Source of the DNA: a virus | Taxonomy: Duplodnaviria; Heunggongvirae; Uroviricota; Caudoviricetes | IMG/VR virus record: IMGVR_UViG_2693429706_000001 | Strand: one strand, 5' to 3' | DNA length: 18,039 nucleotides | Part shown: in pieces, positions 1 through 16,236 of the stretch | Position numbering within the stretch: the first letter of the stretch is position 1 | Layout of the letters: each line of letters begins with the position of its first letter | Notes under the pieces: model-generated | What the model was told of the DNA's origin: nothing | What the model saw: only the letters and a program-made list of their open reading frames with translations | Databases searched by the model: none | Made by a program: the position numbers and the translations under genes

Positions 1-756
1 TTGAGTGCGGGACGCCTGAATAAAAAATCTCTGGGTATCGTGATGTTGTTATCGGTTGGACTGCTTTTGGCGGGCTGTTCGGGTAGCAAATCATCCGATA
101 CAGGAACGTATTCCGGCTCCGTTTACACCGTGAAACGGGGGGATACGCTATATCGTATTTCGCGCACCACGGGAACCAGCGTAAAAGAACTGGCGCGACT
201 GAACGGCATTTCCCCCCCTTACACCATTGAAGTTGGTCAGAAACTAAAACTGGGTGGGGCGAAAAGTAGCAGTATTACACGTAAATCAACCGCCAAATCA
301 ACGACCAAAACCGCATCGGTTACACCGTCATCAGCGGTACCGAAATCATCCTGGCCGCCAGTAGGGCAACGTTGTTGGTTATGGCCAACGACAGGGAAAG
401 TTATCATGCCGTATTCGACAGCAGATGGCGGCAATAAAGGGATTGATATCTCAGCTCCACGGGGTACACCTATTTACGCCGCGGGTGCAGGAAAGGTGGT
501 GTATGTGGGCAACCAGCTGCGTGGCTACGGTAATCTCATCATGATTAAACACAGTGAAGATTACATTACGGCTTACGCCCATAATGACACGATGCTGGTA
601 AATAATGGGCAAAGCGTGAAGGCTGGGCAAAAAATCGCCACTATGGGGAGCACGGATGCGGCATCTGTTCGCCTGCATTTCCAGATTCGTTACCGTGCAA
701 CGGCAATTGATCCGCTACGTTACTTGCCGCCGCAGGGCAGCAAGCCAAAATGCTGA
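1..756 (+). CDS. ygeR: LysM-domain / M23 (LytM)-family peptidase lipoprotein, YgeR-like
   Basis: 251-aa ORF with signal peptide ending in lipobox LLAGC, a LysM motif (YTVKRGDTLYRISR...LARLNGI) and a C-terminal M23-type peptidase region; lies directly upstream of tRNA-Gly as in the E. coli ygeR-glyU locus. First codon is TTG at window position 1, so the true start and upstream context are not visible. Confidence 0.85.
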   Translation: MSAGRLNKKSLGIVMLLSVGLLLAGCSGSKSSDTGTYSGSVYTVKRGDTLYRISRTTGTSVKELARLNGISPPYTIEVGQKLKLGGAKSSSITRKSTAKSTTKTASVTPSSAVPKSSWPPVGQRCWLWPTTGKVIMPYSTADGGNKGIDISAPRGTPIYAAGAGKVVYVGNQLRGYGNLIMIKHSEDYITAYAHNDTMLVNNGQSVKAGQKIATMGSTDAASVRLHFQIRYRATAIDPLRYLPPQGSKPKC

Positions 757-834: not shown

Positions 835-908
835 GCGGGCGTAGTTCAATGGTAGAACGAGAGCTTCCCAAGCTCTATACGAGGGTTCGATTCCCTTCGC
901 CCGCTCCA
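835..908 (+). tRNA. glyU: tRNA-Gly (anticodon CCC)
   Basis: 74-nt sequence GCGGGCGTAGTTCAATGGTAGAACGAGAGCTTCCCAAGCTCTATACGAGGGTTCGATTCCCTTCGCCCGCTCCA with acceptor stem, D-loop, anticodon loop CTTCCCAAG, T-loop GGTTCGATTCC and encoded CCA end; matches my recollection of E. coli glyU. Confidence 0.92.
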
Positions 909-1308
909 ATTTATCTTCACCTCATCAATCTGCCATTTTTGCTGTATCTGATTTTCTATATTATCTTAATTCAATCGCTTCAGACTTTTCGCAATCGCCG
1001 TAATATTTCCCCATTTTGTTGTAAATAAAAAGCGTTTACGCAATGCAATCCTTTTGTAACAACCCAGGTAAAACACCTTATTTTCAAGTTGTTAAATAAG
1101 TGGTTATCTACGCTTTTAACAAACGATTGATGGAATATTTTATGAAAGGGAAATCTGCATTAACTCTTCTGCTCGCTGGTATATTTTCGTGCGGCACATG
1201 CCAGGCGACAGGGGCAGAAGTGACGAGTGAATCTGTATTTAACATTCGGTAATGACTCCAACTTATTGATAGTGTTTTATGTTCAGATAATGCCCGATGA
1301 CTTTGTCA

Positions 1309-1318
1309 NNNNNNNNNN
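1309..1318. other. assembly gap (run of 10 N)
   Basis: Ten consecutive n characters; the ORF track translates them as XXXX inside a minus-strand ORF. Confidence 0.99.
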
Positions 1319-1618
1319 TCCGACCAGACTCTGCAGGTCTTCCGCCATCGCGGTGACCATGCCGTGCAGGTTAGAAACCGTCAGTGTCGGACGGGCAGCA
1401 CTGCCCTTGCCGTTCAGTTCAAATCCCGTCCCCTGAATGGGATACGCCTGATACTGTCGCCCCTGCCAGGTGATCGGCTCACCTTTTTCGTTCTGCTCAT
1501 TACAGAAAAAATAACGTTCTCCACCGACCACTGTCAGATCGATTTCCCAGAGCACCACCTGGGCTGACTGAGTGAGGCGTGTCGTCTCATGATGTGTTTC
1601 CTGTGGAATATCCTGCAT
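1319..1618 (-). CDS. minor tail protein L, N-terminal part only (truncated by assembly gap)
   Basis: MQDIPQETHHETTRLTQSAQVVLWEIDLTVVGGERYFFCNEQNEKGEPITWQGRQYQAYPIQGTGFELNGKG... is near-identical in pattern to the lambda gpL N-terminus; AGGAG lies 6 nt upstream of the ATG at 1618. Reading frame runs into the N-run; residues translated beyond the gap do not resemble gpL. Confidence 0.8.
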
Positions 1619-1627
1619 CAGAGACTC

Positions 1628-1957
1628 CTATGCCACGACCTGTTCAAAATCTGCCGTTATGGTTACCCACAACGCCCCCACGCTTGCCGACCATTTACGA
1701 CAAACCACCCTGATCGGCTTCCAGTCATAAGGTGGCGTCCACTGAAATGCGCGGACGCCACCGTGCCGTTCCAGAAAGGCTTTTAAAGATGGGTGTTCAC
1801 ATTTACGAACACGTATCGTCACGCTGTAAGTCGACAACTGGTTATTCAGTCCCGCCGCACGACGCTGTTCATAACCATCGCCCAGCTTCACTGTCACCAC
1901 TTTCGGCTCTGATACCACATTCATATCCGGGCGCACTTTCCAGTGAAACGTCTCCAT
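1628..1957 (-). CDS. minor tail protein M
   Basis: 109-aa ORF METFHWKVRPDMNVVSEPKVVTVKLGDGYEQR...ADFEQVVA is collinear with lambda gpM (MKTFRWKV...EFEQVVN); its ATG overlaps the H stop codon by 1 nt (TAATG). Confidence 0.88.
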   Translation of the reverse strand: METFHWKVRPDMNVVSEPKVVTVKLGDGYEQRRAAGLNNQLSTYSVTIRVRKCEHPSLKAFLERHGGVRAFQWTPPYDWKPIRVVCRKWSASVGALWVTITADFEQVVA

Positions 1958-4900
1958 TACCGATATGCTCCACTTAACCGACCACCATCACGGGCCTGCT
2001 GTTGCATAAAGTCCGCTGCCGCTTTTTTCCCAAGGTCATAAACCACCTTCAGGGCAGCCGGACCTATCTGCCCGTTCGTGCCATCGTTATTGATCTCGAT
2101 GTTGTACTGCGGGGCAAACATCGCCATACCTGAACCACCAATATCCGCCACAACCCCCAGCTTACCGTCAGCACCACGACGCAGTGGCAGAATGGCTTCA
2201 GGTCCCGCTTCCCCCATCACACCCGCGCCTTTTGCAAAAGCAAAAAACGTCGGACGGTTAACCACCGTGCCACTGTAACGACTCAAATCAGCAGACTGAT
2301 AAATCCCCCCATTGGCATTCAGGGAAAGGCTGCTGAGATCAAATCCCAGTACACTGCCAATCCCTTTTATCGATTTCATCATGGTTGCCTGCGCCAGGAT
2401 TTTCGCCATATCTGACAGCACCGAAGAGGTGAAGGATTTGAAGTTGAGTTTGCCGGTAGTGACAAAAGTTGCCAGGCCATTTCCCATGTTGCTGAAGGCT
2501 GACGAGAACACCTGTTCTGCTGTTCCTGCCGTATTGTCTGCATCCACGGTAAAATCCTGAAATGCACGCAGGACTCCGTTTTTCCAGTTACCCTGCACAA
2601 CTTCAAGCTGTTGCCAGTAACGGCGATTCTCATTCAGTTGTCGGTTCAGGCTCTCCGTCAGCGCCTGCTCGGCCTTTCTGTAGTCATCCGTGTTATATGT
2701 CCCTTTCTGCTCACTATCCCGCCTCAACTGCTCCAGCTGTTGCTGGTATTTCTGGCGAAGACTCAGTTGTACCTGATATCGCTGCCGCTGCTGATCACCC
2801 ATACCCACCGTGGCGATATCCAGGTCATGTTGCTGACGCTGAGCGAGCTCTTCTTCAGCCAGTTGACTGGTCAGCTGAATTGTTTTTTTCTTCAGATCGT
2901 TGAGTGCCGTCTGTTTCTGAAGCTCCTGCTGTTTTACATCCAGCAGCGTCAGTGCCTGAATCAGTTCATCTTTACGGGCCAGCACACTCTTTTCATCTGC
3001 CGTCAGTTTTTTCCCGTCCAGATCGCTGATGCGCTGCTGCAGAGCCAGAAGCTGTTTATGCGCTTCTGTCATCTTTTCAGTGGCAATGCCTGCTGACTGT
3101 CTTGCAGCAGCAATCTGTCCTTCCACCTGTGCCTGTTGCTGACTGTACTGCAGCAATAACCGGGTGGCCTCATCATTACGGGTTTCGCGTGTTTTTTTCT
3201 TACCGGATGCCAGGGCTTTCTCGTAACGTTCATTTTCACGTTGTATCGCTGCATCCCTGACAGCCTGATCGGCGTACTGCATGGCATTAATACGCGCAAT
3301 TTCACGCTGATGTCGTGCTGCTTCCGTTTCATTCATCCGGTTCAGTGCAGCATTTTCAGCATTACGTCGTTTCTGTTGCTCCTGATAATTCCGCTCTGCC
3401 TGCTCTTTTGCATCCTGCAAATCCTTCTGGCGTTTTTTCTCCTGAAGATCGTTAAGACGCTGCTGATCGTATTCAACCTGAGAAGATGATGCCGTCCAGG
3501 GGAGTCTTTTCGCCCGCGACACTTTCTCCTGTAAAGCGGCAATCTGTTCATCCAGCGAGTCTTCACGACCAATATTCATGGCCGCATCCCAGAAACGACT
3601 CCATAAATCAGACAGATACTTCAGCGTACTGCCAAGCGCATTGAGGTTATTATCAATATCCGCAGTACGCCGACCGGTTTCCTCTGCCAGTGCAGACATG
3701 GCTATCCGTGCAGCATCACTGGACCGTCCCTGATCCCCAAGGACACGTATCTGCTCAAGCTGAGTGGCAGTAAGAAAATGCAGCTCATTGTCCAGAGCCT
3801 TCGCGGCATTTACAGGATCATCCTTCAGCCGCTTAAACTGATTTATGGTATCGCTGACCGACTGGCCAACCGATCGCTCCATCTGTGCGGCAGCTCTCGC
3901 CACCATACCGATATCGTTTCCACGAAATGCACCACTCCCCACCACCTGAGCCAGCACACCGGCTGCAGCATGTTGCGTGATACCATTCCCGGAAATAGCA
4001 CGACTGAGCGTCCACAGCTGCCCGGCAGTGACTCCGGCATAATGCCCCGTCAGCGACAACTGGCGGTTAAATTCTTCCCCCTCCTTCTGACCGTCATACC
4101 AGGCTTTACCCAGACCATAGACGGACGCGGCAATACCGCCAATAACCCCGCCAAGCATCATGCCTTTCGGTGACATCAGAGTGTCTATCCATCCGGCACG
4201 GTTAGCCAGCGTTATCCCGGATCCCCTCAGCGCCCCTAAATTGCCGCGGGCCAGTTCACCTATCAGAACGCCTATCTCCTGGCGGGCCGCTGCACTTTTC
4301 AGACCCAGCGAATGCGTGGCTTTTCCTGCCTGCTCCATTTTGCGGATATACACTTCTGCAGCACTGCTTACCCCCAGCTGGGCAGCCTTAGCACGAAGCA
4401 ACTCAGAAGAAGAAAGATTCTGGCGGGTTGCCTGCTCTTTAAGCTGACGGATAAACGCCACTTTCTGTCGGGTAGCCTCTTCCTCAGCCTGCGTAAGAAC
4501 ACGGGTTTTCGCCGTAACCTCAGAAATCAGCGCCAGATAATCCTGCTGACCAATCCCGCCACTGTTTCTGGCCTGTCGGATCTGCTGCTGAATACGCTGT
4601 AATTCCTGCAGCCCCGCACTGGCCTGTTTCACACTGTCAATCTGACGATAAAACGCAGCAGCTGCTTTATCCTGAGCCTCCGCCAGAGCCATGGCCTGCG
4701 CCTGTTCCTCGCGCATTTTCTGGCTCAGTGCCTCCATACGCTGGCGGGTTTTCTCCACCTCGCGGGCCATGCGTTCATGAGCCTGTGCGTTCTTCTCCAC
4801 CGTCTGCGCATGGACGGATGCGGCTGTTGCAGCCGAAGACGCCGCCTGCGTTGTCTGCCGGGCGGCCTGAGTCTGACGCTCCATAAAACGCTGCATACGG

Positions 4901-5022
4901 GCAGAAGACCGTTCTGCATCGCTGGCTGCACCATTCAGAAGGTTTTTGATACGGGGAATTTCATTTTTAAACTCTGCCGCATCAATCCCCAAATCAATGA
5001 CCAGGTTGGCTATCTGGTCCAT
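1957..5022 (-). CDS. tail tape measure protein (lambda gpH-like), about 1021 aa
   Basis: Very long ORF with an extended Q/E/R/A-rich coiled-coil centre and the lambda-H-like C-terminus ...NDGTNGQIGPAALKVVYDLGKK.... Start placed at ATG 5022 (MDQIANLVIDLGIDAAEF, aligning with lambda H MAEPVGDLVVDLSLDAARF) with GGAGG 8 nt upstream; the ORF-track start at 5052 is a TTG. Confidence 0.9.
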   Translation of the reverse strand: MDQIANLVIDLGIDAAEFKNEIPRIKNLLNGAASDAERSSARMQRFMERQTQAARQTTQAASSAATAASVHAQTVEKNAQAHERMAREVEKTRQRMEALSQKMREEQAQAMALAEAQDKAAAAFYRQIDSVKQASAGLQELQRIQQQIRQARNSGGIGQQDYLALISEVTAKTRVLTQAEEEATRQKVAFIRQLKEQATRQNLSSSELLRAKAAQLGVSSAAEVYIRKMEQAGKATHSLGLKSAAARQEIGVLIGELARGNLGALRGSGITLANRAGWIDTLMSPKGMMLGGVIGGIAASVYGLGKAWYDGQKEGEEFNRQLSLTGHYAGVTAGQLWTLSRAISGNGITQHAAAGVLAQVVGSGAFRGNDIGMVARAAAQMERSVGQSVSDTINQFKRLKDDPVNAAKALDNELHFLTATQLEQIRVLGDQGRSSDAARIAMSALAEETGRRTADIDNNLNALGSTLKYLSDLWSRFWDAAMNIGREDSLDEQIAALQEKVSRAKRLPWTASSSQVEYDQQRLNDLQEKKRQKDLQDAKEQAERNYQEQQKRRNAENAALNRMNETEAARHQREIARINAMQYADQAVRDAAIQRENERYEKALASGKKKTRETRNDEATRLLLQYSQQQAQVEGQIAAARQSAGIATEKMTEAHKQLLALQQRISDLDGKKLTADEKSVLARKDELIQALTLLDVKQQELQKQTALNDLKKKTIQLTSQLAEEELAQRQQHDLDIATVGMGDQQRQRYQVQLSLRQKYQQQLEQLRRDSEQKGTYNTDDYRKAEQALTESLNRQLNENRRYWQQLEVVQGNWKNGVLRAFQDFTVDADNTAGTAEQVFSSAFSNMGNGLATFVTTGKLNFKSFTSSVLSDMAKILAQATMMKSIKGIGSVLGFDLSSLSLNANGGIYQSADLSRYSGTVVNRPTFFAFAKGAGVMGEAGPEAILPLRRGADGKLGVVADIGGSGMAMFAPQYNIEINNDGTNGQIGPAALKVVYDLGKKAAADFMQQQARDGGRLSGAYR

Positions 5023-5718
5023 AACGCACACCTCCGGAAATACCTTCCCCAAGATGCATCAGTTCTTCGTCCGTTCGCTCCGGTATCCCGTTCTCTTCCG
5101 GTAAAAGGCTGAAATCAGCCACCGCAGCATCACTGCTGCCGGACACCATTCTCACGATCAATGCCTTCAGCGAGGCAAACTGCGCATCCATCCACACATC
5201 ACTGAAGCTCTGCATCCGGAAATAATCGCCCCACTCACCAAGCTCAGTGGCCGACATTTCCGACAGCATCCGCCGCCAGTCTGCCCGCCTGAACTCCCGG
5301 GCAAGCCGCATGACAAACTGCATTTCCCGCGTCAGGACTTTTCCGGCGTCAGCACCTCATGCTCCAAATCCCCGGCATTCTCAATGGCTCCCATACCGCT
5401 CAGCGACAGAACCATCTCCGCCCCCGCTCCCAGGGCATCATACGACCATGTTGTAATAACGGATGCGCAAAGCGTCTCAACATCCTGAGACTGTTCCGCA
5501 TTCCACAGTGAGCGGGAAACCAGCCAGGCATTGATATCCATCCCCATCCGCAGAAAAGCAATCTGTCGTTCAGCCTCCGGCAGTTCTCCCTCTTCGGCAT
5601 CAAACTTTGCCGTTCGCTGCTGAACAAACGCCAGATATTCAATTCTCTGCAGCCCGGACAGCTCACTGAGCACCACGGACTGCTTTTCATAATTAAACGT
5701 GCCCTGTTTCAGAAACAT
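4994..5718 (-). CDS. tail assembly chaperone G-T fusion, made by programmed -1 ribosomal frameshift near the end of G
   Basis: The T-like ORF (MQFVMRLAREFRRADWRR...) is in the -1 frame relative to G, is open from 5356, and overlaps the 3' end of G; a slippery-type heptamer GGAAAAG sits at 5344..5338. Same architecture as lambda G/GT. Confidence 0.7.
5332..5718 (-). CDS. tail assembly chaperone G
   Basis: MFLKQGTFNYEKQSVVLSELSGLQRIEYLA... aligns with lambda gpG (MFLKTESFEHNGVTVTLSELSALQRIEHLA...). Start chosen at the second ATG of ATGATG (5718), 6 nt after GGAG; the ORF-track start at 5760 is TTG and spans a terminator hairpin. Confidence 0.85.
   Translation of the reverse strand: MFLKQGTFNYEKQSVVLSELSGLQRIEYLAFVQQRTAKFDAEEGELPEAERQIAFLRMGMDINAWLVSRSLWNAEQSQDVETLCASVITTWSYDALGAGAEMVLSLSGMGAIENAGDLEHEVLTPEKS
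5338..5344 (-). other. candidate -1 frameshift slippery heptamer GGAAAAG (G GAA AAG in the G frame)
   Basis: Minus-strand sequence CCG GAA AAG TCC TGA closes G; shifting -1 gives GGA AAA GTC CTG ACG ..., which continues into T. The lambda site is GGGAAAG, one base different. Confidence 0.55.
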
Positions 5719-5734
5719 CATGTTCTCCACCTGC

Positions 5735-5758
5735 AAAAAAGCCCCGGATAACCGGGGC
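5735..5758 (-). terminator. intrinsic (rho-independent) terminator between V and G
   Basis: Minus-strand GCCCCGG-TTAT-CCGGGGC (perfect 7-bp GC stem, 4-nt loop) followed directly by TTTTTT; lies in the 57-nt V-G intergenic space. Confidence 0.7.
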
Positions 5759-5778
5759 AAATGATGAGTATCGTCCTG

Positions 5779-6522
5779 TTAACCTGCGGCGCTGACAGCC
5801 ACCGCAGCCACTGCCACAAAATCGCCGTCAGAAGTCATGCCCACAATGCTGACACTGCCCTGCTTCACGCCTTTCACCGTGGCCACAAGCCCGTTCAGGG
5901 TCACCGTGGCAGTCTGTGGATCTGTCGAATGCACACTGATCGCTTTGTCACTGGCTCCGTCAGGTTTTACTGTAAAGGTCAGCGTGGTGGTTGCTCCCAC
6001 TTTTACACTGGCAGATGCCGGTGCCACCGTCAGCCCGGTAACGCTCACTGTTTCAGTGCCTTCCTCTGCCAGATACGGACGCCCCACACCGCTGATTTTC
6101 ACTGTGTGGGTCATCACGTCTTTTGAGGCAATGGTTTTACCCAGTGAGCTCAGCCAGCCACGGAAAACATCAACAGTGCCGTTGGGATATTTGATACGAA
6201 ACGCGCAGACTTCACCGGAGTCGAACAACTGAACCAGTTTTTTCTGTCCGCTGTCACCCGGACGCCAGGCCAGCGTCGCCGAAGTATCACCGACGGATTT
6301 CTGCCCCTGGGTTGTCGTTTTCCAGTCTGCATCTTCATCATCGAGATAAGTGTCATCTTCTGCATCAGCGGTCATTTCGCCAGGTTGCAGATCCTTCACC
6401 ATCGCAAGACGCAGCCAGTCAGTGTCCGATAAAGGGTTCGCAAACGCATCGCCCTTGCCGGTGTACATCCAGAACGTCGTTCCCGCACCTTTCGTTTTTG
6501 CCAGTGGATTTGGTGTGGTCAT
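5779..6522 (-). CDS. major tail protein V with C-terminal Ig-like (Big_2-type) domain
   Basis: ...KTKGAGTTFWMYTGKGDAFANPLSDTDWLRLAMVKDL...DDEDADWKTTTQGQKSVGDTSATLAW... is collinear with lambda gpV; the C-terminal region (VTGLTVAPASASVKVGATTTLTFTVKPDGASDK...) is Ig-like. Start at ATG 6522, 6 nt after AAGGAG; the ORF-track first codon is GTG. Confidence 0.9.
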   Translation of the reverse strand: MTTPNPLAKTKGAGTTFWMYTGKGDAFANPLSDTDWLRLAMVKDLQPGEMTADAEDDTYLDDEDADWKTTTQGQKSVGDTSATLAWRPGDSGQKKLVQLFDSGEVCAFRIKYPNGTVDVFRGWLSSLGKTIASKDVMTHTVKISGVGRPYLAEEGTETVSVTGLTVAPASASVKVGATTTLTFTVKPDGASDKAISVHSTDPQTATVTLNGLVATVKGVKQGSVSIVGMTSDGDFVAVAAVAVSAAG

Positions 6523-6533
6523 TGCCACCTCCT

Positions 6534-6935
6534 TTAATTCGTGTACGTGATCTGGTACGTGATTTCCGCCATCGCCCAGGTGGCCATCTCATTATCACGT
6601 TGATAGTTAAAACCGAGAGGGATCAGGGTGTCGATGAGTCCGGAAAGTGCCGGTATATCATTCAGAGCCGGGAAAATGGTGCTCTCCATCCACATATCCA
6701 GCTCTGAATCCGGTGCCTGTGCCCGGATGAAGACAGCAATATGCAGAACAGCCTGCCAGTCATCTTCATCCGTCATTTTTCCGGTGTACTGAGCATCACT
6801 CAGCCACACCGCCACGGCAGGCAGTTCCTGCGCATCAATAAATGCCGGAAGCCCGTCAAAAAACGTGGCGCTGTCTCCACACTGTTCCCGAAGGCGTGCC
6901 AGTACGGCCTGGCGGATTTGTGTATGTCGGTTCAT
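6534..6935 (-). CDS. minor tail protein U (tail terminator)
   Basis: MNRHTQIRQAVLARLREQCGDSATFFDGLPAFIDAQELPAVAVWLSDAQYTG...ITYQITY aligns with lambda gpU along its length; the ATG overlaps the Z stop (ATGA). Confidence 0.88.
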   Translation of the reverse strand: MNRHTQIRQAVLARLREQCGDSATFFDGLPAFIDAQELPAVAVWLSDAQYTGKMTDEDDWQAVLHIAVFIRAQAPDSELDMWMESTIFPALNDIPALSGLIDTLIPLGFNYQRDNEMATWAMAEITYQITYTN

Positions 6936-7510
6936 CGGGTCAGCCATAACCTCAGTTGTTGTTTCAGTGCATACCCCAGCTGTTTCGGCATTTCCGCAGC
7001 AATGATGCGGTCGCGGGCATCTTCAAATGCCTGTGTCAGCGGTCCGGAAAGCGGGATTTTCACCACATCAATGGGGTAACGATTTTTGCCATCAATACGC
7101 CGCATCACATGCCAGCGACCATTCGCCAGTTGCTGAATAAACGCATCCCGGAAAAGATATTTACCCACCTTCAGCACACTGCCACGGTACTGCAGTTTTC
7201 CACCACGCCGGGCCAGTCTGACCCGGGCTGTCCCCAGCTTAATGGCGGGCAGATTGCCCCGGTTAACGCGGATCCTGGCCGTCATTTTTCCTGACGGACT
7301 GGCTTTAAACACCCGGACACGCTGACGTACCAGTTTCAGGGGGATCCCTTTCACCTGGTTATCTCCCGCAACGGTATTCCCGGCAACCTGCCGGGTGGCA
7401 ACCGAGACCGCTTTCTGTGCCACACGGTTTATCGCCCATGCGCTGGCCTGTGGCACCATACGGGTATCAAGGCTGTTCAGATTGCGGATGGCATTCTCAA
7501 GCCCCTTCAT
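6932..7510 (-). CDS. minor tail protein Z (lambda gpZ family)
   Basis: 192-aa ORF (same length as lambda gpZ) located between the FII-like and U genes; AGAGGTG Shine-Dalgarno lies upstream of ATG 7510. Confidence 0.8.
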   Translation of the reverse strand: MKGLENAIRNLNSLDTRMVPQASAWAINRVAQKAVSVATRQVAGNTVAGDNQVKGIPLKLVRQRVRVFKASPSGKMTARIRVNRGNLPAIKLGTARVRLARRGGKLQYRGSVLKVGKYLFRDAFIQQLANGRWHVMRRIDGKNRYPIDVVKIPLSGPLTQAFEDARDRIIAAEMPKQLGYALKQQLRLWLTR

Positions 7511-7521
7511 CCCACACCTCT

Positions 7522-7797
7522 TTACTCAATAAAGATCATTGGCTTACCGTTAAAACGTTCATGCCGTGTGACCGTCCATTGTTGTCCGTCATAAACAACG
7601 CGATCCCCGCGCCGTGGGCGGTATCCCGAAGAAAACACCACCAGAGAGACCGCAGGTCCGGACAGAGCATTCAGCTCTGCCAGTGTTTCGCCCGGGATCA
7701 CAGCCATATCGACATCATTAATCGAGGCTGTCTTTCCCATCTTTCTGACCGTGATCGCATCCATACGCGCTGCCAGCCGGGAAAAGGGATCAGACAT
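7522..7797 (-). CDS. head-tail joining / tail attachment protein (lambda FII-like)
   Basis: 91-aa ORF in the FII position; weak pattern similarity to lambda FII (N-terminal F-x-x-L-x-x-A, PRRGD...W.V.R motif). Confidence 0.6.
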   Translation of the reverse strand: MSDPFSRLAARMDAITVRKMGKTASINDVDMAVIPGETLAELNALSGPAVSLVVFSSGYRPRRGDRVVYDGQQWTVTRHERFNGKPMIFIE

Positions 7798-8113
7798 TGA
7801 GTTTTACCGGCACTTCTTCTGCACTGGTTCCGGCATCTGCCCAGACAACCCCGACCAGCGGATCAGAGCCGCTGTTAGTCAGCTGAACTTTTCCGGACTT
7901 CAGATAAACCTTCTTACCCGTTTTCATGTCATCCGTTTTCAGTTTAGGCAGGATAAACACACCTTCGGTCATGCCGTCGCCTGTTTCACCCTGTGGAATA
8001 TCGGTCAGCGCCACCGCAAAAACATCACCCACCTGCACCAGATCTCCGCTGCTGATGGCTGCACTGGCAACAATCGCCACCGTTTTTCCTTCTTCTACAA
8101 AATTCTTTGCCAT
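7790..8113 (-). CDS. DUF2190-family small head protein (possible decoration/stabilisation protein)
   Basis: MAKNFVEEGKTVAIVASAAISSGDLVQVGDVFAVALTDIPQGETGDGMTEGVFILPK...; GGAGA lies 5 nt upstream of ATG 8113. The longer ORF-track start at 8158 would run through two hairpins. The family name is from memory. Confidence 0.6.
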   Translation of the reverse strand: MAKNFVEEGKTVAIVASAAISSGDLVQVGDVFAVALTDIPQGETGDGMTEGVFILPKLKTDDMKTGKKVYLKSGKVQLTNSGSDPLVGVVWADAGTSAEEVPVKLNV

Positions 8114-8156
8114 AACTGTCTCCGCACAGCCCCGTTCAGGGGCTGATTTCAGGTAC

Positions 8157-8175
8157 AAAAAAAGCCCTTACGGGC
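8157..8175 (-). terminator. intrinsic terminator immediately after the major capsid gene
   Basis: Minus-strand GCCC-GTAA-GGGC (GNRA-type tetraloop) followed by TTTTTTT; begins 25 nt after the capsid stop codon at 8200. Confidence 0.6.
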
Positions 8176-8199
8176 CATCAGAGTTGTTGTCTGCGACGT

Positions 8200-10209
8200 T
8201 TACGCCGTACATTTCACCAGACCGCGGTGATCAACTGGCGCGACACCGGCGTCAATACGCACTTTCGTTGTCACGCCATCCACACTGAAGCCCTCCATCT
8301 GATCAATATATGGCGTATCCACACCGTTGAGATAAGCCACTTCAATCGTATCGGAGCCTTTTGACGCAGCCAGGTAGAAGGTGGTCTGGCTGTTATCATC
8401 AAGACGAGGCTCTGCAATAACGGTCGCAAAATCTTTCACCGGGTTAATAATACCGGCGTTAATGTCAGCCCCCTTGACACTTGAGGAGCGAATGACCTGG
8501 TTAGCAACAGACTCCATCGCCGTCGGTACCAGTACGAACGCAGGACGAATATTCAGATGACGCTCCCCCTCTTTCTGAACGCGCATCAACTGGCGGGCTT
8601 TATCCAGCGATGCCACGTCCATTGCAGCGCTCTCCAGTACGTTTGCATGTTTCGCTTTATCGAACAGACTTACATTATCTGTGGAGATTTTCGGGTTAGA
8701 CGTCAGAATGGCATAAACCAGATCGGCAATAGTGGATTTCGCCGCACGGCCCAGTTTCATCGGGACATCGGTCAGCATATTCAGATCATCATTGATAATG
8801 GCCTGACGGGTGATACTGAACAGCTCGCCATAGGTCGCCAGTGCAATAGTGGCCTGTTTATCTCCGGTGGTGACGTATTTATATTCCGCCCCTTCACGCA
8901 CCTGACGCAGAGCACTGAAGCCACCCATACCCACACGATGGGCAATTTTAAAATCAGACAACTGACCTTTCCGCGTCCACTGTTCATAGGTTTCAGGGGC
9001 ATCTTCCCAGCCCTGCAGAATGGCTTTGTTCGCAACATCCAGCAGAATATTACCGAAGTCAGACGTACTGTGTGTGAACGCCGCACCGACCATCTGCATC
9101 GGGTTATAACTGGAAACCCCAATACCCCGTTCAGTCAGTGACATACGGGCATATTCACGCAGGGTCATCCCGTTGTAGACATTATCACGTTCGGTTTTTT
9201 CAAATCCGGCACGCGCCATCAGCGCCTGGCGGATCCCGTCCCCCACAAAATTACCGTTACCGGCATAAATATGAGCCGGGGTATTTTTATTGGATGGCGT
9301 GGACTCGCGCCCCATCTCGTTCAACAGCTTTTCGCGGGCCTGCTCCAGCGAACATTCAGGATCGGCAAGACACTGAGCCTGCAGCGTCTGATAACGCCCG
9401 CCAAACATGGCAAACAGATCATTAATACCGTTTACACGCGCTTTTTGCTCTGCCAGTACCTGCGCACGGATGCTGTTTTCATCCACCACGGGTGCTGCTG
9501 CCTGCACTGGCGTCCGGGAGGCTTCAGGTTCATTATCCTGTACGCGTGGAGCACTGTTGCGTGGCGGAGTAATCATGTTTCGAATGGATTCCGGCATCTT
9601 TTTAAATTCCTCTGTACGTTTTGACTGAATACATGCCATTGCCTTAACGGCTGGCGTTACCTGATCAGCAAATCCATGTGCCAGACATTCGGCACCGGAC
9701 ATCCAGGTCTCATCCGCCAGCATGGCAGCAATTTCATCGGTGGTTTTCCCGGTTTTCTGTGCATAAGCGGGTAACAGAACCGCCTCAACTTTATCGAGCA
9801 GGTCGGCATAGGTGCGCATGTCCTCCGCATCACCGCCCGTAAAGCCAAATGGTTTATGAATCATCATGAAGGTGTTTTCCGGCATAATGACCGGGTTTCC
9901 CACCATCGCAATGACCGACGCCATTGACGCCGCCACACCGTCGACATAAACGGTAATGGACGCACCATGTGTTTTCAGCGCATTAAAAATGGCGATGCCT
10001 TCAAAGACATCGCCACCCGGTGAATTAATATGGAGATTAATGTGGGTGATATCGCCCAGTGCATTCAGATCACTGATAAACTGCTTCGCTGTAACACCCC
10101 AGAAACCAATCTCGTCATAAATATAAATATCCGCGTCACTCTGGTGACCAGCCTGCATCCTGAACCAGGAATTATTCTTCGGACTGGTCGTCGGTGTGCT
10201 GCGGCTCAT
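8200..10209 (-). CDS. fused prohead protease (ClpP/S14-like) - scaffold - HK97-fold major capsid protein
   Basis: N-terminal region has ClpP hallmarks (INSPGGDVFEGIAIFNAL..., VDGVAASMASVIAMVG with the nucleophile Ser, MIHKP with the His); a central Ala/Gln/Glu-rich linker; the C-terminal ~300 aa resemble a phage major capsid protein. Start uncertain: ATG 10209 overlaps the portal by 38 nt, the alternative ATG at 10158 lies 13 nt after the portal stop; neither has a strong Shine-Dalgarno. Confidence 0.8.
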   Translation of the reverse strand: MSRSTPTTSPKNNSWFRMQAGHQSDADIYIYDEIGFWGVTAKQFISDLNALGDITHINLHINSPGGDVFEGIAIFNALKTHGASITVYVDGVAASMASVIAMVGNPVIMPENTFMMIHKPFGFTGGDAEDMRTYADLLDKVEAVLLPAYAQKTGKTTDEIAAMLADETWMSGAECLAHGFADQVTPAVKAMACIQSKRTEEFKKMPESIRNMITPPRNSAPRVQDNEPEASRTPVQAAAPVVDENSIRAQVLAEQKARVNGINDLFAMFGGRYQTLQAQCLADPECSLEQAREKLLNEMGRESTPSNKNTPAHIYAGNGNFVGDGIRQALMARAGFEKTERDNVYNGMTLREYARMSLTERGIGVSSYNPMQMVGAAFTHSTSDFGNILLDVANKAILQGWEDAPETYEQWTRKGQLSDFKIAHRVGMGGFSALRQVREGAEYKYVTTGDKQATIALATYGELFSITRQAIINDDLNMLTDVPMKLGRAAKSTIADLVYAILTSNPKISTDNVSLFDKAKHANVLESAAMDVASLDKARQLMRVQKEGERHLNIRPAFVLVPTAMESVANQVIRSSSVKGADINAGIINPVKDFATVIAEPRLDDNSQTTFYLAASKGSDTIEVAYLNGVDTPYIDQMEGFSVDGVTTKVRIDAGVAPVDHRGLVKCTA

Positions 10210-11680
10210 GTCGTTTCGTTGCGGCACTGCTGCCTCCTTTATCACTGGCCGGATCGGTATCAAATACCAGATCCAGCTTGCGGTTTTCATCAATTTCGGC
10301 CTTGCGCCGACGTTTGACATCATCCGGATTACGACCACCAGCACGTACCCAGTCTGATTCTGTCGCCGCTCCACCACGAATCTGGATTTTCCAGGCCTCA
10401 GCCTCCTTAACAGGGTCAATCCACGGCATCACCGGTCCGGAATACACCGCGGTATACAGTGAAGAACGGTCAAGATCGCGGGGTAGCCTGATAACACCGG
10501 ATGCCACAGCCTGTTTCAGCCAGGCACGATACATCGGACGGGTGACGGCACCAATAAACCAGTCCTGCAGGATCAGGTAGCCATCAGTGGATTCAACCAG
10601 CTCCTGACGCTGGGCGCTGTAAGTGCCGTTATAGTTGCGCGCTGTACTGGAAAAACTCAGACGACTGCCCGCCGCCACGGCACGCAACTGACCATTACGA
10701 AAAGTTTCAAGGTTAGGATTGGGGCGATCCGACTTCACCATTCCGATTTCTTCGCCGGGTTTCAGATCATCGTAAATAATGCCTGGCTGAATGGTAAGCT
10801 CGCGTTCCTTATCCTTGCTGCCATTACCATCCGCTTCATAGCTCTGCCCGTCGCCTTTCCGGATGTACATCCCCAGAGCAGCGGCGATCCTTGCTGCAGT
10901 CAGCTCAGAATCTTCATACTCTTTCAGAGCACTGAGGCGGATCAGCACACCGGACAATAAAGACGTCCCGCGCATCTGGTGCAGACGGCGAACAAATTTA
11001 AGATGCAGCATTCGCTCTGCATCCACTTCTTTGGTTTCCATCTGCCGTCCGGATACGGGACGGCTTTTATACACCAGATATTTTTCGGGACGCCCCCAGT
11101 CATCAACAAACACGCCCTGATTCAGCCTGTTGCTCTCATCACTGGTCATGGGAATAAAGTCCGGCTCGAGCGCCTCCAGCCAGAAATGAACACCGGCAGA
11201 AGGCGTCAGGCTGTTTATGCGCCCGGAAACCATCTGGGCAAACACCTCACCATCGCGCAGCCAGGTACGAAGCATCAGACGTTCCAGCATCGGACGGGTA
11301 AACTGCCCGGTGACTTCCGGGCTGACAGACCATTCACTCCATCGGGTGCGAATCTCCGCAGCCAGGTCACGGGCAATGGCCCCATTGCGTAATACCGGAT
11401 GTGGCTCGACAATAATCCCGTTTTTCCCCACCACCCGTTCTTCCAGCTTGTCAAATACACCAATAACCAGATCGTGGTTGTTATCAAGGTAACGGGCCTG
11501 CTCACGTAACGACACGGCCCCGTACTGGCTTAACTGGTCGGCAGTTCGGTTCTCCCGTCGGGCTTTGTGTGTCCGCGTCGTTTTTACGGCCTCATAAGCC
11601 TGGATCACCGCACGGGAACGCAGCCTTGCCGCTTTCCATCCTGGTGAAAAAACGCCAATCACATCATCAAGAATTGCCAT
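10172..11680 (-). CDS. portal protein (lambda gpB family)
   Basis: 502-aa ORF in the portal position between gpW-like and protease genes. Start set at ATG 11680 (MAILDDVIGVFSPGW...) with GAGG 5 nt upstream and a 1-nt overlap with the W stop (TGATG). Confidence 0.85.
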   Translation of the reverse strand: MAILDDVIGVFSPGWKAARLRSRAVIQAYEAVKTTRTHKARRENRTADQLSQYGAVSLREQARYLDNNHDLVIGVFDKLEERVVGKNGIIVEPHPVLRNGAIARDLAAEIRTRWSEWSVSPEVTGQFTRPMLERLMLRTWLRDGEVFAQMVSGRINSLTPSAGVHFWLEALEPDFIPMTSDESNRLNQGVFVDDWGRPEKYLVYKSRPVSGRQMETKEVDAERMLHLKFVRRLHQMRGTSLLSGVLIRLSALKEYEDSELTAARIAAALGMYIRKGDGQSYEADGNGSKDKERELTIQPGIIYDDLKPGEEIGMVKSDRPNPNLETFRNGQLRAVAAGSRLSFSSTARNYNGTYSAQRQELVESTDGYLILQDWFIGAVTRPMYRAWLKQAVASGVIRLPRDLDRSSLYTAVYSGPVMPWIDPVKEAEAWKIQIRGGAATESDWVRAGGRNPDDVKRRRKAEIDENRKLDLVFDTDPASDKGGSSAATKRHEPQHTDDQSEE

Positions 11681-11892
11681 CAGAACCTCGCCAGCCGATA
11701 CCCGGGATGCCCCCGTCGTCGTGTAATCAGAGCCGCAAGGCGGCGCTCCCACTCCTGCCGTCCCTGCCGGATCTCAGATAAGTTTTCCATGGTCATCTGC
11801 TGACCATTAAAGGTGACGGATTTTCCGTCCAGCACCGCCATTTCAGCTTCCGTATAACGCTGAATCATGGCTTCGATATCATTCTGGTTCAT
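11680..11892 (-). CDS. head-tail joining protein (lambda gpW-like)
   Basis: About 70 aa, MNQNDIEAMIQRYTEAEMAVLDGKSVTFNGQQMTMENLSEIRQGR...RRRGHPGY resembles lambda gpW (..[32 protein letters not shown]...RRRGPAGF); the ATG overlaps the terL stop (ATGA) and GGAGG is upstream. Confidence 0.75.
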   Translation of the reverse strand: MNQNDIEAMIQRYTEAEMAVLDGKSVTFNGQQMTMENLSEIRQGRQEWERRLAALITRRRGHPGYRLARF

Positions 11893-13988
11893 AACCATCC
11901 TCCGGAAGTCAGCCAGGGGTTAACATCGTCAGTTACTGTTTTCTTCCGTTTTTGTTTTTTAACAGGCGTGGATACCGGTTCCGGTGAGGATGACGGTTCG
12001 GTACTGTCCGGGACACACTCCAGCCAGGTTTCCCGGCTCGCCCACTCCGGTGCATCCGGCCAGCGGATCTTTTCGTATCCATGCAGAATGACCAGAGCCT
12101 CGGCATACACCATCAGGTCAAAAGCTTCGTTGGCACCGCGACCCGGCTTACTCCATTTCCCGTCACTGCTCCGCTCTTCATACGTCAGTTCGTCGTAAAA
12201 CCAGCTCCCCAGCCAGTCAGGGAAATGCACATAGCCGGGACCTGGCGAGTCACGCCATAACGCGTTATTCACCCGGTCTTTCAGTGCATCCGTCTGAAGA
12301 AGCCAGAGCGGCACATCACCTGCGGCCTGCGCCCGTCGGCCCGTTCGTCCGGTGTTATCAGGGAATGTACGGGTGATCAGTTTTGCGCGCCGGATGCTGT
12401 CGCCCTTAAACAGGTAAATACGTTTACCAAGGCCATCACGACGGCAACGACGCCAGAATTTATAGGCATTATCAGTGACCCCGTCTTCACCGCCGGAGTC
12501 CACCGCCATTGCCATCAGTCGCATTTGTTGAGAAGGATCGGAGGCCAGCGGCCAGCTTTTATGAAAAACATCCGTCAGCAGGACATCCCAGTCTTCCGGA
12601 TAGCTGGCCGGATCAATTCGCTGGCTCTCCCCGTCGCTGTCACCGCGCAATGACTGCGTGATGTTGTAACGATCAATAATCCAGCGTTCGCCACGGCTGC
12701 CATAGCCCGTTACCTGAACCACAAAACGGCGATGACGTCCCGCCTGCACATCCACTGTCGCCACAAGAAAATTAACGCCATCCGGCACACTGCGGGAAGG
12801 AACTGGCTCTGCCCGCTGCTCAAGCAGTTCACTTTTTCGTTGCTCCATGCTGGCGCGGGGAAGATAAGGTAATCCCCAGTCGGTGTTGATAACCGCCCTG
12901 AGTGTTTCTTCACTTCCTGTCGCTTCATACTCCTGTTCTGCAGTCAGTAATTTGTAAACCAGTTGCGCCCAGGTCTGATACGCAGCAGCTGGCCCTTCCA
13001 TCCAGAAACTGGCGATACGGGAGCGGCGCGGTTCACCGGAAACGTTGCCGTTACAATCAATGACCTGACCTTCACGCAACCAGACTCCTGCACTATTGAG
13101 CTCACGCTTTTTCTCCGCCGTGATAATGCCGCTGCAGTGCGGGCAAAGTAGATACGCCGCCTCACTGGCTTTAAAGGGATCCGGTTCATTACGGTAGCCG
13201 GTCATGGCATCCATGGCTGGCTGAAAATATTCACCGCAGTGCGGACATGGCCAGTACCAGCGGCGGCGGTCACCACGATTGTAAAGGGAAAGAATACCAG
13301 TCGTCGGTGGCGCTTCATGAGGCGACTTACGTCGCCATTTGCTGTCGCAGATGTCACGTCCCGGCGAGCTCTCCACCAGAGTCATCCCGGCGGACATAAA
13401 TGTGGTGGTACGTTTTGAGGCCAGGGAGAAACCATCACCCTCGCTGTCGATATTCTCCGGAAAACGGTCGTAATCGGTTAAGGCGACAAACCGGTAATCC
13501 GACGACGACATAATGTTGACCGAGGGCCAACCAATTTTAAGGAACGAGCCATCCCTGAACGTCTTATCATGGACATTATTGTCATTACGACGTGGACTCA
13601 TTCTTTTCTTTACCGCCGCACTGCTTCTGAACGTTCTGTCGAGGCGCTTTTTTGAATGCTCGCGGGCCTTATCTTCGGTCATCTGCACAACGAGCATGTC
13701 CGAAGGATCGCAAACGATGGTATAGACAATCCATCCATCGATCAGACCAATGGTCTTCCCTGTTCGCGCAGGACCAACAAAAATCACCGCATCGTATTCA
13801 CGCGATGCCAGGCAGTTCATGGGCTCAATGATGTAGGGTGTCAGTTCAGGATCCCATGGCACCGAGTTACCAGCCCCCTTGGGAACACGCATGAATTTTT
13901 TAACAGCCTCCGAAATCGGCATGCGACGTGGTGGGGAAAATCCTGCCGATATGTCCCTTCCCAAATTTCGGGCTGATGAAAAACCCAT
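11889..13988 (-). CDS. terminase large subunit (lambda gpA family)
   Basis: 699-aa ORF with a Walker-A-like VGPARTGKT motif and a CPHCGEYF zinc-binding motif (lambda gpA has CPHCGEEQY); GGAGG lies 4 nt upstream of ATG 13988. Confidence 0.92.
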   Translation of the reverse strand: MGFSSARNLGRDISAGFSPPRRMPISEAVKKFMRVPKGAGNSVPWDPELTPYIIEPMNCLASREYDAVIFVGPARTGKTIGLIDGWIVYTIVCDPSDMLVVQMTEDKAREHSKKRLDRTFRSSAAVKKRMSPRRNDNNVHDKTFRDGSFLKIGWPSVNIMSSSDYRFVALTDYDRFPENIDSEGDGFSLASKRTTTFMSAGMTLVESSPGRDICDSKWRRKSPHEAPPTTGILSLYNRGDRRRWYWPCPHCGEYFQPAMDAMTGYRNEPDPFKASEAAYLLCPHCSGIITAEKKRELNSAGVWLREGQVIDCNGNVSGEPRRSRIASFWMEGPAAAYQTWAQLVYKLLTAEQEYEATGSEETLRAVINTDWGLPYLPRASMEQRKSELLEQRAEPVPSRSVPDGVNFLVATVDVQAGRHRRFVVQVTGYGSRGERWIIDRYNITQSLRGDSDGESQRIDPASYPEDWDVLLTDVFHKSWPLASDPSQQMRLMAMAVDSGGEDGVTDNAYKFWRRCRRDGLGKRIYLFKGDSIRRAKLITRTFPDNTGRTGRRAQAAGDVPLWLLQTDALKDRVNNALWRDSPGPGYVHFPDWLGSWFYDELTYEERSSDGKWSKPGRGANEAFDLMVYAEALVILHGYEKIRWPDAPEWASRETWLECVPDSTEPSSSPEPVSTPVKKQKRKKTVTDDVNPWLTSGGWL

Positions 13989-13996
13989 TATTCCTC

Positions 13997-14524
13997 CTAG
14001 AGACTCTCTCCTTCCTCATCAGGAATTAATTCAGCAGCACAAGCCTCGTAGGATTTTTCCTGAAGAGTGTATCGCAGGTCATCAATGGCCTGCTGTACAA
14101 CGCCAACGGCCTGAGGAGTCAGGGCGCAATCGCGTTCAAGAACATCCGGAATTGTCTCCAGAACCTGGACGACAGCCTTTCTCATGGACGAATAGACGAT
14201 GACTACTTCATCAACGGGGATGAGTTTTCGCTGCTCCTTTTCCAGCTTGATCCTTTCATTTTCCGACTGGTACCAGTCCTTTCTCTCTTTCGGCTCCATA
14301 CGGGATGGATCATGAACAGAGTCTGCTGCCTCATGCTTCACACTAAACAGGGCAGGCCCGACATGCTGCAGGGCGTAAACGGGGTTCCCCCTGACAGTCG
14401 CAGCCACAGGAGTGTTGGCCGCGAGGAGCCGTTTTTTTACTGTGTCCCAGTGAAGCCCAAAGGCCTCGGCGATTTTAAAAACACTCCAGTAATAAGCATC
14501 ACCGATCCCGCTCACATTTGACAT
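13997..14524 (-). CDS. terminase small subunit
   Basis: About 175-aa ORF ending 9 nt before terL, so terS by position; not the lambda Nu1 sequence type. Start set at the second ATG (MSNVSGIG..., 14524) with GGAG 6 nt upstream. Confidence 0.7.
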   Translation of the reverse strand: MSNVSGIGDAYYWSVFKIAEAFGLHWDTVKKRLLAANTPVAATVRGNPVYALQHVGPALFSVKHEAADSVHDPSRMEPKERKDWYQSENERIKLEKEQRKLIPVDEVVIVYSSMRKAVVQVLETIPDVLERDCALTPQAVGVVQQAIDDLRYTLQEKSYEACAAELIPDEEGESL

Positions 14525-14811
14525 AAGCAACTCCATCTGGCAGGTGAAAATCAGGTTTATTTATATATTTCAATTAATTGCAAACTAGTCTAATGACAGG
14601 GAGAAAAAAATATTGTACAGCTGAAAAGAGAAATAACTTTTAATTATCAATAAATTACCAAACATGCTGCCGCCGCCATGGAAATGCAAAAACTAGCCTT
14701 TTTCCGCGACGCTCCCGCCCCGTGGCAGGGACCCCCACTGGGAGGACCCGACAGCCTGACAACCGTGACGAGCATCTGAAACAGAGCTTTACATAATGGC
14801 ATGGGGATAAT

Positions 14812-15003
14812 TCAGAAGGACATCACAGCATGCCCACACAAATTAGTGTGAGTGTCCTGTTTCTTACTACGCGCAGGACTGACGAGCATGAGGGGAAAAT
14901 ACGAGAACCGAAATGCCTTATCTTCAGAAATGCAGCCGGCATCCGAACTGGACGATATTGTAAATTCACCTAAATACGAGGCATTGCTGTAGTTGAATTG
15001 CAT
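14812..15003 (-). CDS. hypothetical 63-aa ORF (weak)
   Basis: ATG-initiated ORF with no recognisable Shine-Dalgarno and a low-complexity product; listed only because it lies in the cargo region. Confidence 0.2.
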   Translation of the reverse strand: MQFNYSNASYLGEFTISSSSDAGCISEDKAFRFSYFPLMLVSPARSKKQDTHTNLCGHAVMSF

Positions 15004-15086
15004 TGCTGTATTAGCCTGACAGTGACAGAATACGATATTGACTCTGTCACTTGTGAAATGGTCAGAATGGTTAGCAGTTATGGTGA

Positions 15087-15293
15087 TCAGTCAACCACCA
15101 GGGAATAATCCTTCGTATTCTTATCGTGCTTTACTAACGCGGCCTCAATTGCCCTGAATGCTTCCAGAGACACTTGATGTTCTATACATGCAATTACAAC
15201 ATCCGGGTAACCCATCGAAATGGTGCTATTAAGCATAGTTTTTACACGAACCTGCTCCTGGGAGGGGGCATCAGTGTATTGATCTTTATGCAT
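15087..15293 (-). CDS. hypothetical small protein (68 aa), uncharacterised moron
   Basis: ATG at 15293 preceded by GGAG with a 7-nt spacer; product [68 protein letters not shown]. Size and position upstream of terS recall the YbcW/YnfO-type small proteins of DLP12/Qin, but I cannot confirm this from memory. Confidence 0.45.
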
Positions 15294-15523: not shown

Positions 15524-15586
15524 TTTATGGGTAATTTGTATTGTTGAATAGCATCTGATGAGAAATTGATGCTAATACTAAACAGA

Positions 15587-16228: not shown

Positions 16229-16236
16229 CTTCATTT

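What the first reader, a model, noticed from the sequence alone, without database searches (positions are those of the whole stretch)
1309..1318. N-run at the chromosome/prophage boundary truncates tail gene L
Ten N separate the ygeR-glyU chromosomal segment from the prophage. Gene L is cut after about 100 codons, and the residues translated on the far side of the gap (TKSSGII-stop) do not continue the gpL sequence, so the two sides are not a simple continuation. The rest of the tail module (remainder of L, K, I, J, tail fibres), the prophage end and any att site are missing. The apparent juxtaposition of tRNA-Gly and the prophage may therefore be a scaffolding join rather than true adjacency.
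Basis: seen in the sequence. Interest (0 to 1): 0.5.

Follow-up and report, generated by a model that had tools for sequence, protein, structure and literature searches.

The report
Scaffold gap joining two unrelated contigs
The ten Ns are an ordinary draft-assembly gap that glues a chromosomal contig ending inside an IS1 element to an unanchored prophage contig ending inside tail gene L, so the tRNA-Gly/prophage neighbourhood and the "truncated" gene L are assembly artefacts, not biology.

Summary
Positions 1309-1318 are the only ten non-ACGT bases in the window, and gene L stops after exactly 100 codons (1319-1618, minus strand).

ygeQ, the gene after glyU, is interrupted at 1247/1248, and the last 61 bases (1248-1308) are the terminus of IS1. 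"TKSSGII-stop" is IS1 read backwards.

The right side is a Qin-type lambdoid prophage. In the three closed genomes inspected it sits at ydfJ, not glyU.

The decisive evidence comes from ten sister NCBI draft assemblies that carry this prophage with 0 mismatches over 13,704 bases.
- Nine break in L, at the identical base or 60-64 nt later. A run of N follows, then a different chromosomal locus each time.
- One has an intact 232-aa L followed by K, I and J.
- Another contains a second, 96%-identical copy of the L-K region, which supplies the repeat that best explains the assembly break.

None of 5,426 complete E. coli genomes has the two flanks adjacent.

Verdict: this is a repeat-induced contig break with an arbitrary scaffold join. 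Biological interest is low.

The parts
1..756 (+). ygeR/actS (amidase activator; LysM + Peptidase_M23), chromosomal
   Evidence: Pfam LysM and Peptidase_M23. Annotated as actS in NZ_AP027818.1.
835..908 (+). tRNA-Gly(CCC), glyU
   Evidence: ARAGORN. Annotated as tRNA-Gly in closed genomes. Its 3' end is not repeated in the window.
1142..1247 (+). 5' fragment of ygeQ (first 35 codons), cut by an IS1 insertion
   Evidence: 100% identical to ygeQ or 'glycoside hydrolase family 15 protein' in closed genomes up to base 1247. Uninterrupted genomes continue TTAATTCCACGG.... Ten other glyU contexts continue into ygeQ, and most into type III secretion genes.
1248..1308 (+). Terminal 61 bases of an IS1 element (GGTAATGACTCCAACTTATTGAT...), the end of the left contig
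   Evidence: 61/61 identical to the ends of two annotated IS1 copies in L001, each next to an IS1 transposase CDS, where the element continues TGCAGCTCCACC.... One search lists IS1 transposase under the match and a median of 10 matching places per genome.
1309..1318 (.). Run of 10 N: scaffold gap between two contigs
   Evidence: Identical 10-N runs at the same point in gene L in sister NCBI scaffolds.
1319..1618 (-). Codons 1-100 of lambdoid minor tail protein L, cut by the contig end
   Evidence: Pfam PF05100 positions 1-72 of 206. Identical to the first 300 nt of the intact 699-nt L in L014.
1628..1957 (-). Minor tail protein M (109 aa)
   Evidence: Pfam PF05939, full length. Annotated as phage tail protein in L002-L004.
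1957..5022 (-). Tail tape measure protein H (1021 aa), used as the exact-match probe
   Evidence: The exact protein is found in 34 blocks of the collection. Pfam TMP_2, TMP_4 and Tape_meas_lam_C.
4994..18039 (-). Rest of the Qin-type prophage late region: T, G, V, U, Z, head-tail genes, ClpP-protease/capsid fusion, portal, terminase large and small, gnsB, ynfN, cspI, rzpQ, rrrQ
   Evidence: Collinear at 99.1-99.2% with prophages in closed genomes. Gene content.

Best explanation
The N-run is a scaffold gap in a short-read draft assembly. It joins two contigs that each stop where the assembler ran into repeated DNA, and the join does not reflect the real chromosome.

The left contig (ygeR-glyU-ygeQ') stops 61 bases into an IS1 element inserted in ygeQ. 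IS1 is multi-copy in E. coli, so the graph branches there.

The right contig is a prophage piece of about 17.3 kb, from gene L codon 100 to about 610 nt beyond the window's right end, and neither of its ends is anchored. It stops in L because the downstream part of L and the following K region exist in a second, near-identical copy in another lambdoid prophage of the same strain.

The scaffolding or ordering step then placed these contigs next to each other with a conventional 10-N spacer. In the real genome, gene L is most likely intact and followed by K-I-J-lom-tail fibre. The prophage most likely sits at ydfJ (the Qin site). The IS1 is followed by the rest of ygeQ or other DNA.

Shown directly: the IS1 terminus, the recurrent break with different partners, an intact L in a sister assembly, and a second L-K copy in a sister assembly.

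Inferred: that the second copy causes the break at exactly this base, that the window's own isolate has an intact L, and which software made the join.
For: (1) Bases 1248-1308 match the ends of annotated IS1 copies 61/61. ygeQ matches closed genomes at 100% up to base 1247.

(2) A look-up of the exact H protein found sister NCBI drafts (GCA_0014129xx to GCA_0014138xx). Their prophage DNA is identical to the window at 13,704 of 13,704 compared bases.

(3) In 5 of them the sequence stops at the very same base (...CTGCAGAGTCTGGTCGGA). In 4 it stops 60-64 nt further. A run of 10 N follows (567 N in one), then a different locus in each. The flanking gene content suggests purU-ychJ, pflA-pflB, acrB-tomB-hha, rpoS-nlpD-pcm, mhp-lacI and kdsA-prfA (names inferred from Pfam content), plus three more unnamed loci.

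(4) The extra 60-64 nt are identical to the intact L of L014, whose L is 232 aa and is followed by K, I, J, lom and stf.

(5) The opposite end of the prophage contig also breaks, about 610 nt past the window's end. It is joined to gshA-luxS in one assembly and to nagE-glnS in another.

(6) Sister scaffold L034 contains a 659-bp mini-contig that is 96.1% identical (26 mismatches) to L014:13875-14533 (L 3' and K 5'), plus a 77%-identical V-like piece. So the clone has a second lambdoid tail module.

(7) The 300 nt of L kept in the window are at least 95% identical in only 41% of matching E. coli records. The next 300 nt are at least 95% identical in 98% of them. The break therefore sits at a transition from variable to conserved sequence.

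(8) In three closed genomes the prophage is at ydfJ-ydfK-pinQ. No complete genome of 5,426 has the two flanks within about 1.1 kb (best coverage 51%). All ten other glyU contexts lack an adjacent lambdoid prophage; eight of the ten continue into ygeQ and/or type III secretion genes.
Against: The window's own assembly, reads and assembler are not available. The join in this particular isolate has therefore not been disproved read by read.

The second L-K copy was seen in one sister assembly, not in the window's source. Its ends are not perfectly identical to the first copy, so the exact graph topology at codon 100 is inferred.

The right contig starts directly in L with no repeat 'overhang', whereas the left contig keeps 61 bases of IS1. 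The two ends were evidently trimmed differently.
Confidence: 0.93

Rival explanations
1. True adjacency through IS1. In this isolate one IS1 copy lies in ygeQ and another in gene L, and recombination between them (inversion or deletion) really placed ygeQ'-IS1 next to L codon 100. The Ns would then only hide the unassembled interior of IS1.
For: The left contig does end in IS1. IS1 is abundant, and some related prophages carry IS1 insertions, for example in the lysozyme gene of NH-21. A 10-N spacer says nothing about gap size.
Against: The right contig has no IS1 sequence at its end. Four sister assemblies with an identical prophage read 60-64 nt past the break into normal L, and one has L intact. 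The same break is joined to nine other loci in sister assemblies. None of 5,426 closed genomes shows such a junction.
Confidence: 0.03
2. The prophage is really integrated at or near the glyU tRNA gene, a classical integration hot spot. The gap hides only the missing tail genes and attR.
For: tRNA genes are common phage attachment sites, and glyU flanks a known variable island (ygeQ/ETT2).
Against: ygeQ and an IS1 end lie between glyU and the gap. The window has no copy of the glyU 3' end and no integrase. This prophage type sits at ydfJ in all three closed genomes inspected. The prophage contig is unanchored at both ends in sister assemblies.
Confidence: 0.02
3. Gene L is truly truncated at codon 100 in the organism by a deletion or an insertion of some other element, so the prophage is defective. 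The contig end reflects that real breakpoint.
For: Defective Qin-type prophages and pseudogenised L genes exist. NH-21's L has an internal stop.
Against: Sister assemblies with 0 mismatches read on into normal L, or have it intact with K-I-J-stf. A second L-K copy and the variable-to-conserved transition at the break explain the break without any lesion.
Confidence: 0.02

Closest known systems
Repeat-induced contig break with a fixed-length N spacer in a scaffolded short-read draft genome
   Same: A fixed 10-N run. One flank ends inside a multi-copy IS. The other ends where a prophage gene becomes shared with a second prophage. The break recurs at the same base in independent assemblies of the same clone, each time with a different partner.
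   Different: Nothing essential. The software and the criterion used to order the contigs could not be identified, and no paper was found for the accession series.
IS1 insertion sequence (768 bp, E. coli/Shigella)
   Same: The 61 bases before the gap are identical to the ends of annotated IS1A-family copies. The insertion interrupts a gene, ygeQ.
   Different: Only one terminus is present. The transposase genes, the other end and the target-site duplication are not in the window. This exact insertion site was not seen in 5,426 complete genomes or in two contig collections.
Qin prophage of E. coli K-12 (ydfJ locus) and its full-length relatives
   Same: The same cargo and lysis genes (rrrQ, rzpQ, cspI, ynfN, gnsB). 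Close relatives (99.1-99.9% identity) lie at ydfJ-ydfK-pinQ in closed genomes.
   Different: The window copy carries a full head and tail late region. From my own knowledge, K-12 Qin lacks these genes. The integration site in this strain was not observed directly.
Phage lambda minor tail protein L (Pfam PF05100)
   Same: The N-terminal 100 residues match the family (E 3.8e-31). The gene order M-L-K-I-J in the intact sister copy is lambda-like.
   Different: The window holds only profile positions 1-72 of 206, because the contig ends there.

Membership tests
Assembly gap / arbitrary scaffold join | Run of N of conventional fixed length separating otherwise unambiguous sequence | tested here: met
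   Exactly 10 N at 1309-1318, with no other ambiguous base. The same 10-N run occurs in sister scaffolds.
Assembly gap / arbitrary scaffold join | Flanks end in repeated DNA | tested here: met
   Left flank: IS1 terminus, 61/61, with a median of 10 matching places per genome. Right flank: a second L-K copy at 96.1% in the sister assembly L034, and a variable-to-conserved switch at the break. The right-hand cause is partly inferred.
Assembly gap / arbitrary scaffold join | Same contig end joined to different partners in independent assemblies of the same clone | tested here: met
   Nine sister loci with 0 mismatches over 13,704 bases are joined to nine different chromosomal loci, and one reads through.
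Assembly gap / arbitrary scaffold join | Flanks not adjacent in closed genomes | tested here: met
   None of 5,426 complete E. coli genomes covers 80% or more of a query spanning the gap; the maximum is 51%.
Assembly gap / arbitrary scaffold join | No read-pair or long-read support across the gap in this isolate | not testable with these tools
   Reads and the source assembly are not available.
IS1 insertion sequence | Characteristic terminal inverted repeat and adjacent end sequence | tested here: met
   Bases 1248-1308 are identical to the ends of two annotated IS1 elements in NZ_AP027818.1.
IS1 insertion sequence | insA/insB' transposase genes, second terminal repeat and 8-9 bp target duplication | not testable with these tools
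   The contig ends 61 bases into the element, so the rest lies in the gap.
Lambda-type minor tail protein L (PF05100) | Full-length match to the family profile | tested here: not met
   The window fragment covers profile positions 1-72 of 206. The intact sister copy covers 1-206. The shortfall is due to the contig end.
Prophage integrated at a tRNA gene (glyU) | Direct repeat of the tRNA 3' end (att), an integrase next to the tRNA, and adjacency in closed genomes | tested here: not met
   There is only one copy of the glyU 3' end, even allowing 3 mismatches. ygeQ' and IS1 lie in between. No closed genome shows the adjacency. Relatives sit at ydfJ.

The most novel reading that the evidence does not exclude
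In this one isolate an IS1-mediated rearrangement, recombination between an IS1 in ygeQ and an IS1 in prophage gene L, truly fused the glyU/ygeQ region to the Qin-type prophage. This would have inactivated the tail module and inverted or deleted a large chromosomal segment.
Probability: 0.03. Interest if true: 0.15.

Novelty: not a real feature. Interest (0 to 1): 0.05.

Why it matters
The point is practical. Anyone annotating this record would wrongly call a glyU-integrated, tail-defective prophage with a truncated L gene. The evidence says the prophage contig is unanchored at both ends, its L gene is probably intact, and its likely site is ydfJ. Scaffolds of this accession series (JRRI to JRSS, GCA_0014129xx to GCA_0014138xx) should not be used for synteny, integration-site or prophage-completeness calls across N-runs. 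The only real strain-specific biology next to the gap is an IS1 insertion in ygeQ, which is unremarkable.

Tried and rejected
- Exact look-up of the 36-aa truncated YgeQ product found nothing on record.
- Look-up of YgeR returned only unrelated genomes because the protein is ubiquitous. It served as a control showing that glyU normally leads into ygeQ and, in most contexts, type III secretion genes.
- Exact 40-mer scans for the ygeQ::IS1 junction in genome contigs and metagenome contigs gave 0 hits.
- Two literature searches for the WGS accession prefixes found no relevant paper, so strain identity, assembler and scaffolding method remain unknown.
- I tested whether the 659-bp second-copy mini-contig has perfectly identical ends of about 60 nt, the signature of a simple de Bruijn bubble. 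It does not: the identical runs are 9 and 38 nt. The graph is therefore more complex than a two-copy bubble, and there may be more than two copies.
- I considered that the Ns might be masking added by the data provider. I rejected this because the same N-runs are present in the NCBI sister scaffolds.

Full report
**Observation.** The window contains exactly one stretch of non-ACGT characters, ten Ns at 1309-1318. To the left lie ygeR/actS (1-756; LysM and Peptidase_M23) and tRNA-Gly(CCC) glyU (835-908). To the right, on the minus strand, a lambdoid late operon runs towards the gap. It contains M (1628-1957, Pfam Phage_min_tail) and L, which starts at 1618 and reaches the Ns at 1319. That is exactly 100 codons, matching Pfam Phage_tail_L positions 1-72 of 206. 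Translating through the Ns gives ...SLVG-XXXX-TKSSGII*.

The chromosomal contig does not end in ordinary chromosome. A short ORF starting at 1142 is the beginning of ygeQ. It is 100% identical to closed genomes up to base 1247, after which those genomes continue TTAATTCCACGG.... From 1248 the window instead reads GGTAATGACTCCAACTTATTGAT... These 61 bases are identical to the ends of two annotated IS1 elements in NZ_AP027818.1, each directly next to an IS1 transposase CDS. So the left contig ends 61 bases inside an IS1 inserted after codon 35 of ygeQ. "TKSSGII*" is simply the IS1 terminus read on the opposite strand. IS1 is multi-copy: a query containing it has a median of 10 matching places per E. 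coli genome. That is a standard cause of contig ends in short-read assemblies. No complete genome has IS1 at this exact site, because every full-coverage hit is split into at least two pieces. The junction 40-mer is also absent from two contig collections.

**What the right side is.** Bases 1319-18039 are collinear at 99.1-99.2% with prophages in many closed E. coli genomes, and at 99.9% over L-M-H-T with STEC005 and NH-21. In the three closed genomes I inspected (STEC005, NH-21, EC20-72C-1), this prophage is a full-length relative of Qin. It has the lysis and cargo genes essD, rrrQ, rzpQ, cspI, ynfN and gnsB. It has lambda-like head and tail genes, with L (699 nt) followed by K, I, J, lom and the tail fibre. 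It abuts pinQ-ydfK-ydfJ-ydfI. None is near glyU. Conversely, ten unrelated contexts of the exact YgeR protein mostly continue from glyU into ygeQ and type III secretion genes, and none has a lambdoid prophage next to glyU.

**Decisive evidence from sister assemblies.** An exact look-up of the 1021-aa tape measure protein found a series of NCBI draft assemblies (GCA_001412975 to GCA_001413825, WGS prefixes JRRI to JRSS). All ten loci returned are identical to the window at every one of 13,704 compared bases, so they represent the same clone or at least the same prophage.
- In five of them the sequence stops at the very base where the window stops (...CTGCAGAGTCTGGTCGGA).
- In four it stops 60-64 nt further on.
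- In each case a run of N follows (10 N in eight, 567 N in one), and then a different chromosomal locus. From the flanking gene content these appear to be purU-ychJ, pflA-pflB, acrB-tomB-hha, rpoS-nlpD-pcm, the mhp operon with lacI, kdsA-prfA, and three more unnamed loci.
- The tenth locus (JRRI01000005.1, a 151-kb contig) has no gap. Its L is 232 aa, matches the full Pfam profile, and is followed by K, I, J, lom and the tail fibre gene.
- The 60-64 extra bases in the four longer contigs are identical to that intact L. So nothing is inserted at codon 100.

One and the same contig end joined to at least ten different partners, counting the window, cannot be real adjacency.

**The prophage contig floats at both ends.** A look-up of the terminase large subunit returned three sister scaffolds that extend beyond the window's right end. 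In two of them a 10-N run lies about 610 nt upstream of rrrQ. Beyond it are gshA-luxS in one and nagE-glnS in the other. The contig is thus about 17.3 kb. This agrees with the 14 collection blocks whose longest contig carrying the H protein is 10-20 kb.

**Why it breaks in L.** The third scaffold (L034, JRSN01000059.1) continues through the lysis and Q region into a string of seven 10-N gaps separating mini-contigs of 115-659 bp. One mini-contig, 659 bp long, is 96.1% identical (26 mismatches) to L014:13875-14533, which is the 3' part of L and the 5' part of K. Another is a 77%-identical V-like fragment. A third is 100% identical to part of the tail fibre region. The clone therefore carries at least one further lambdoid tail module whose L-K region is nearly identical to this one.

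Population data fit this. The 300 nt of L retained in the window are at least 95% identical in only 41% of matching E. coli records (1,737 of 4,190). The next 300 nt are at least 95% identical in 98% (4,126 of 4,215). The break thus coincides with a switch from a variable to a highly conserved segment of L, where two prophages in one genome are expected to become indistinguishable to a short-read assembler. That this second copy causes the break at exactly this base is an inference. The mini-contig's ends are not cleanly identical, so the graph is more complex than a simple two-copy bubble.

**Direct test of adjacency.** A query spanning the gap (700-1950) would be joined into one place if the flanks lay within about 1.1 kb, which is enough for a 768-bp IS1. 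It found no complete genome among 5,426 covering more than 51%. No second copy of the glyU 3' end, which would mark an att site, exists in the window even with three mismatches allowed.

**Conclusion.** The feature is an assembly gap. Two contigs, each ending at repeated DNA (IS1 on the left, a shared lambdoid L-K segment on the right), were concatenated with a conventional 10-N spacer by a scaffolding or ordering step whose placements are inconsistent between sister assemblies. The truncation of L, the missing K-I-J and tail fibre genes, and the glyU/prophage neighbourhood are artefacts. The real genome most probably has an intact L and a Qin-type prophage at ydfJ. The residual alternative is an IS1-mediated rearrangement truly fusing ygeQ to L in this isolate. 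It is not strictly excluded without the reads, but the evidence above contradicts it, and I give it about 3%. The accession series could not be tied to a publication, so the assembler and scaffolder remain unknown.

**Novelty and interest.** This is not a biological feature. Its value is a caution about annotating across N-runs in this set of scaffolds.

Noticed in passing
window 1142-1308: IS1 is inserted after codon 35 of ygeQ, with candidate 9-bp target TTAACATTC at 1239-1247. This exact site was not seen in 5,426 complete E. coli genomes or in two contig collections, although other genomes carry IS1 elsewhere in ygeQ.
   Followed up: partly
L008:13715-16269 and L009:13715-14696 (sister scaffolds JRSE01000171.1, JRSB01000213.1): The contigs joined to gene L in these sister assemblies begin inside what appear to be acrB (upstream of tomB-hha) and rpoS (upstream of nlpD). 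That would mean contig breaks inside single-copy genes. This could reflect IS insertions in those genes or poor assembly.
   Followed up: no
L034:1101-2695 (JRSN01000059.1): Seven 10-N gaps lie within 1.6 kb, separating mini-contigs of 115-659 bp. They include a second L-K copy (96%), a V-like fragment (77%) and a tail fibre fragment (100%). It looks as if unresolved prophage 'bubble' contigs were strung together in the scaffold.
   Followed up: partly
L030:5330-5339 and L032:5332-5341, corresponding to about 610 nt beyond window position 18039: The prophage contig also ends just upstream of rrrQ in sister assemblies and is joined there to unrelated loci (gshA-luxS, nagE-glnS). The prophage piece in the window is therefore probably an unanchored contig of about 17.3 kb.
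   Followed up: yes
window 8200-10227 (minus strand): The head module encodes a single 675-aa ClpP-like prohead protease/major capsid fusion protein rather than separate lambda-like C and E genes. This is common in this prophage family according to closed-genome annotations.
   Followed up: no
window 14540-17000: A Qin-type cargo block (gnsB, ynfN, ymcF/ynfQ, cspI) lies between the terminase and lysis genes, identifying the prophage as a full-length relative of the defective K-12 Qin element.
   Followed up: partly
L006:13715-13930 (JRSD01000246.1): The about 200 bp following the gap and preceding purU contain a motif I recalled from memory as resembling a lambda terminator-region sequence used in cloning vectors. 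Its identity was not checked.
   Followed up: no
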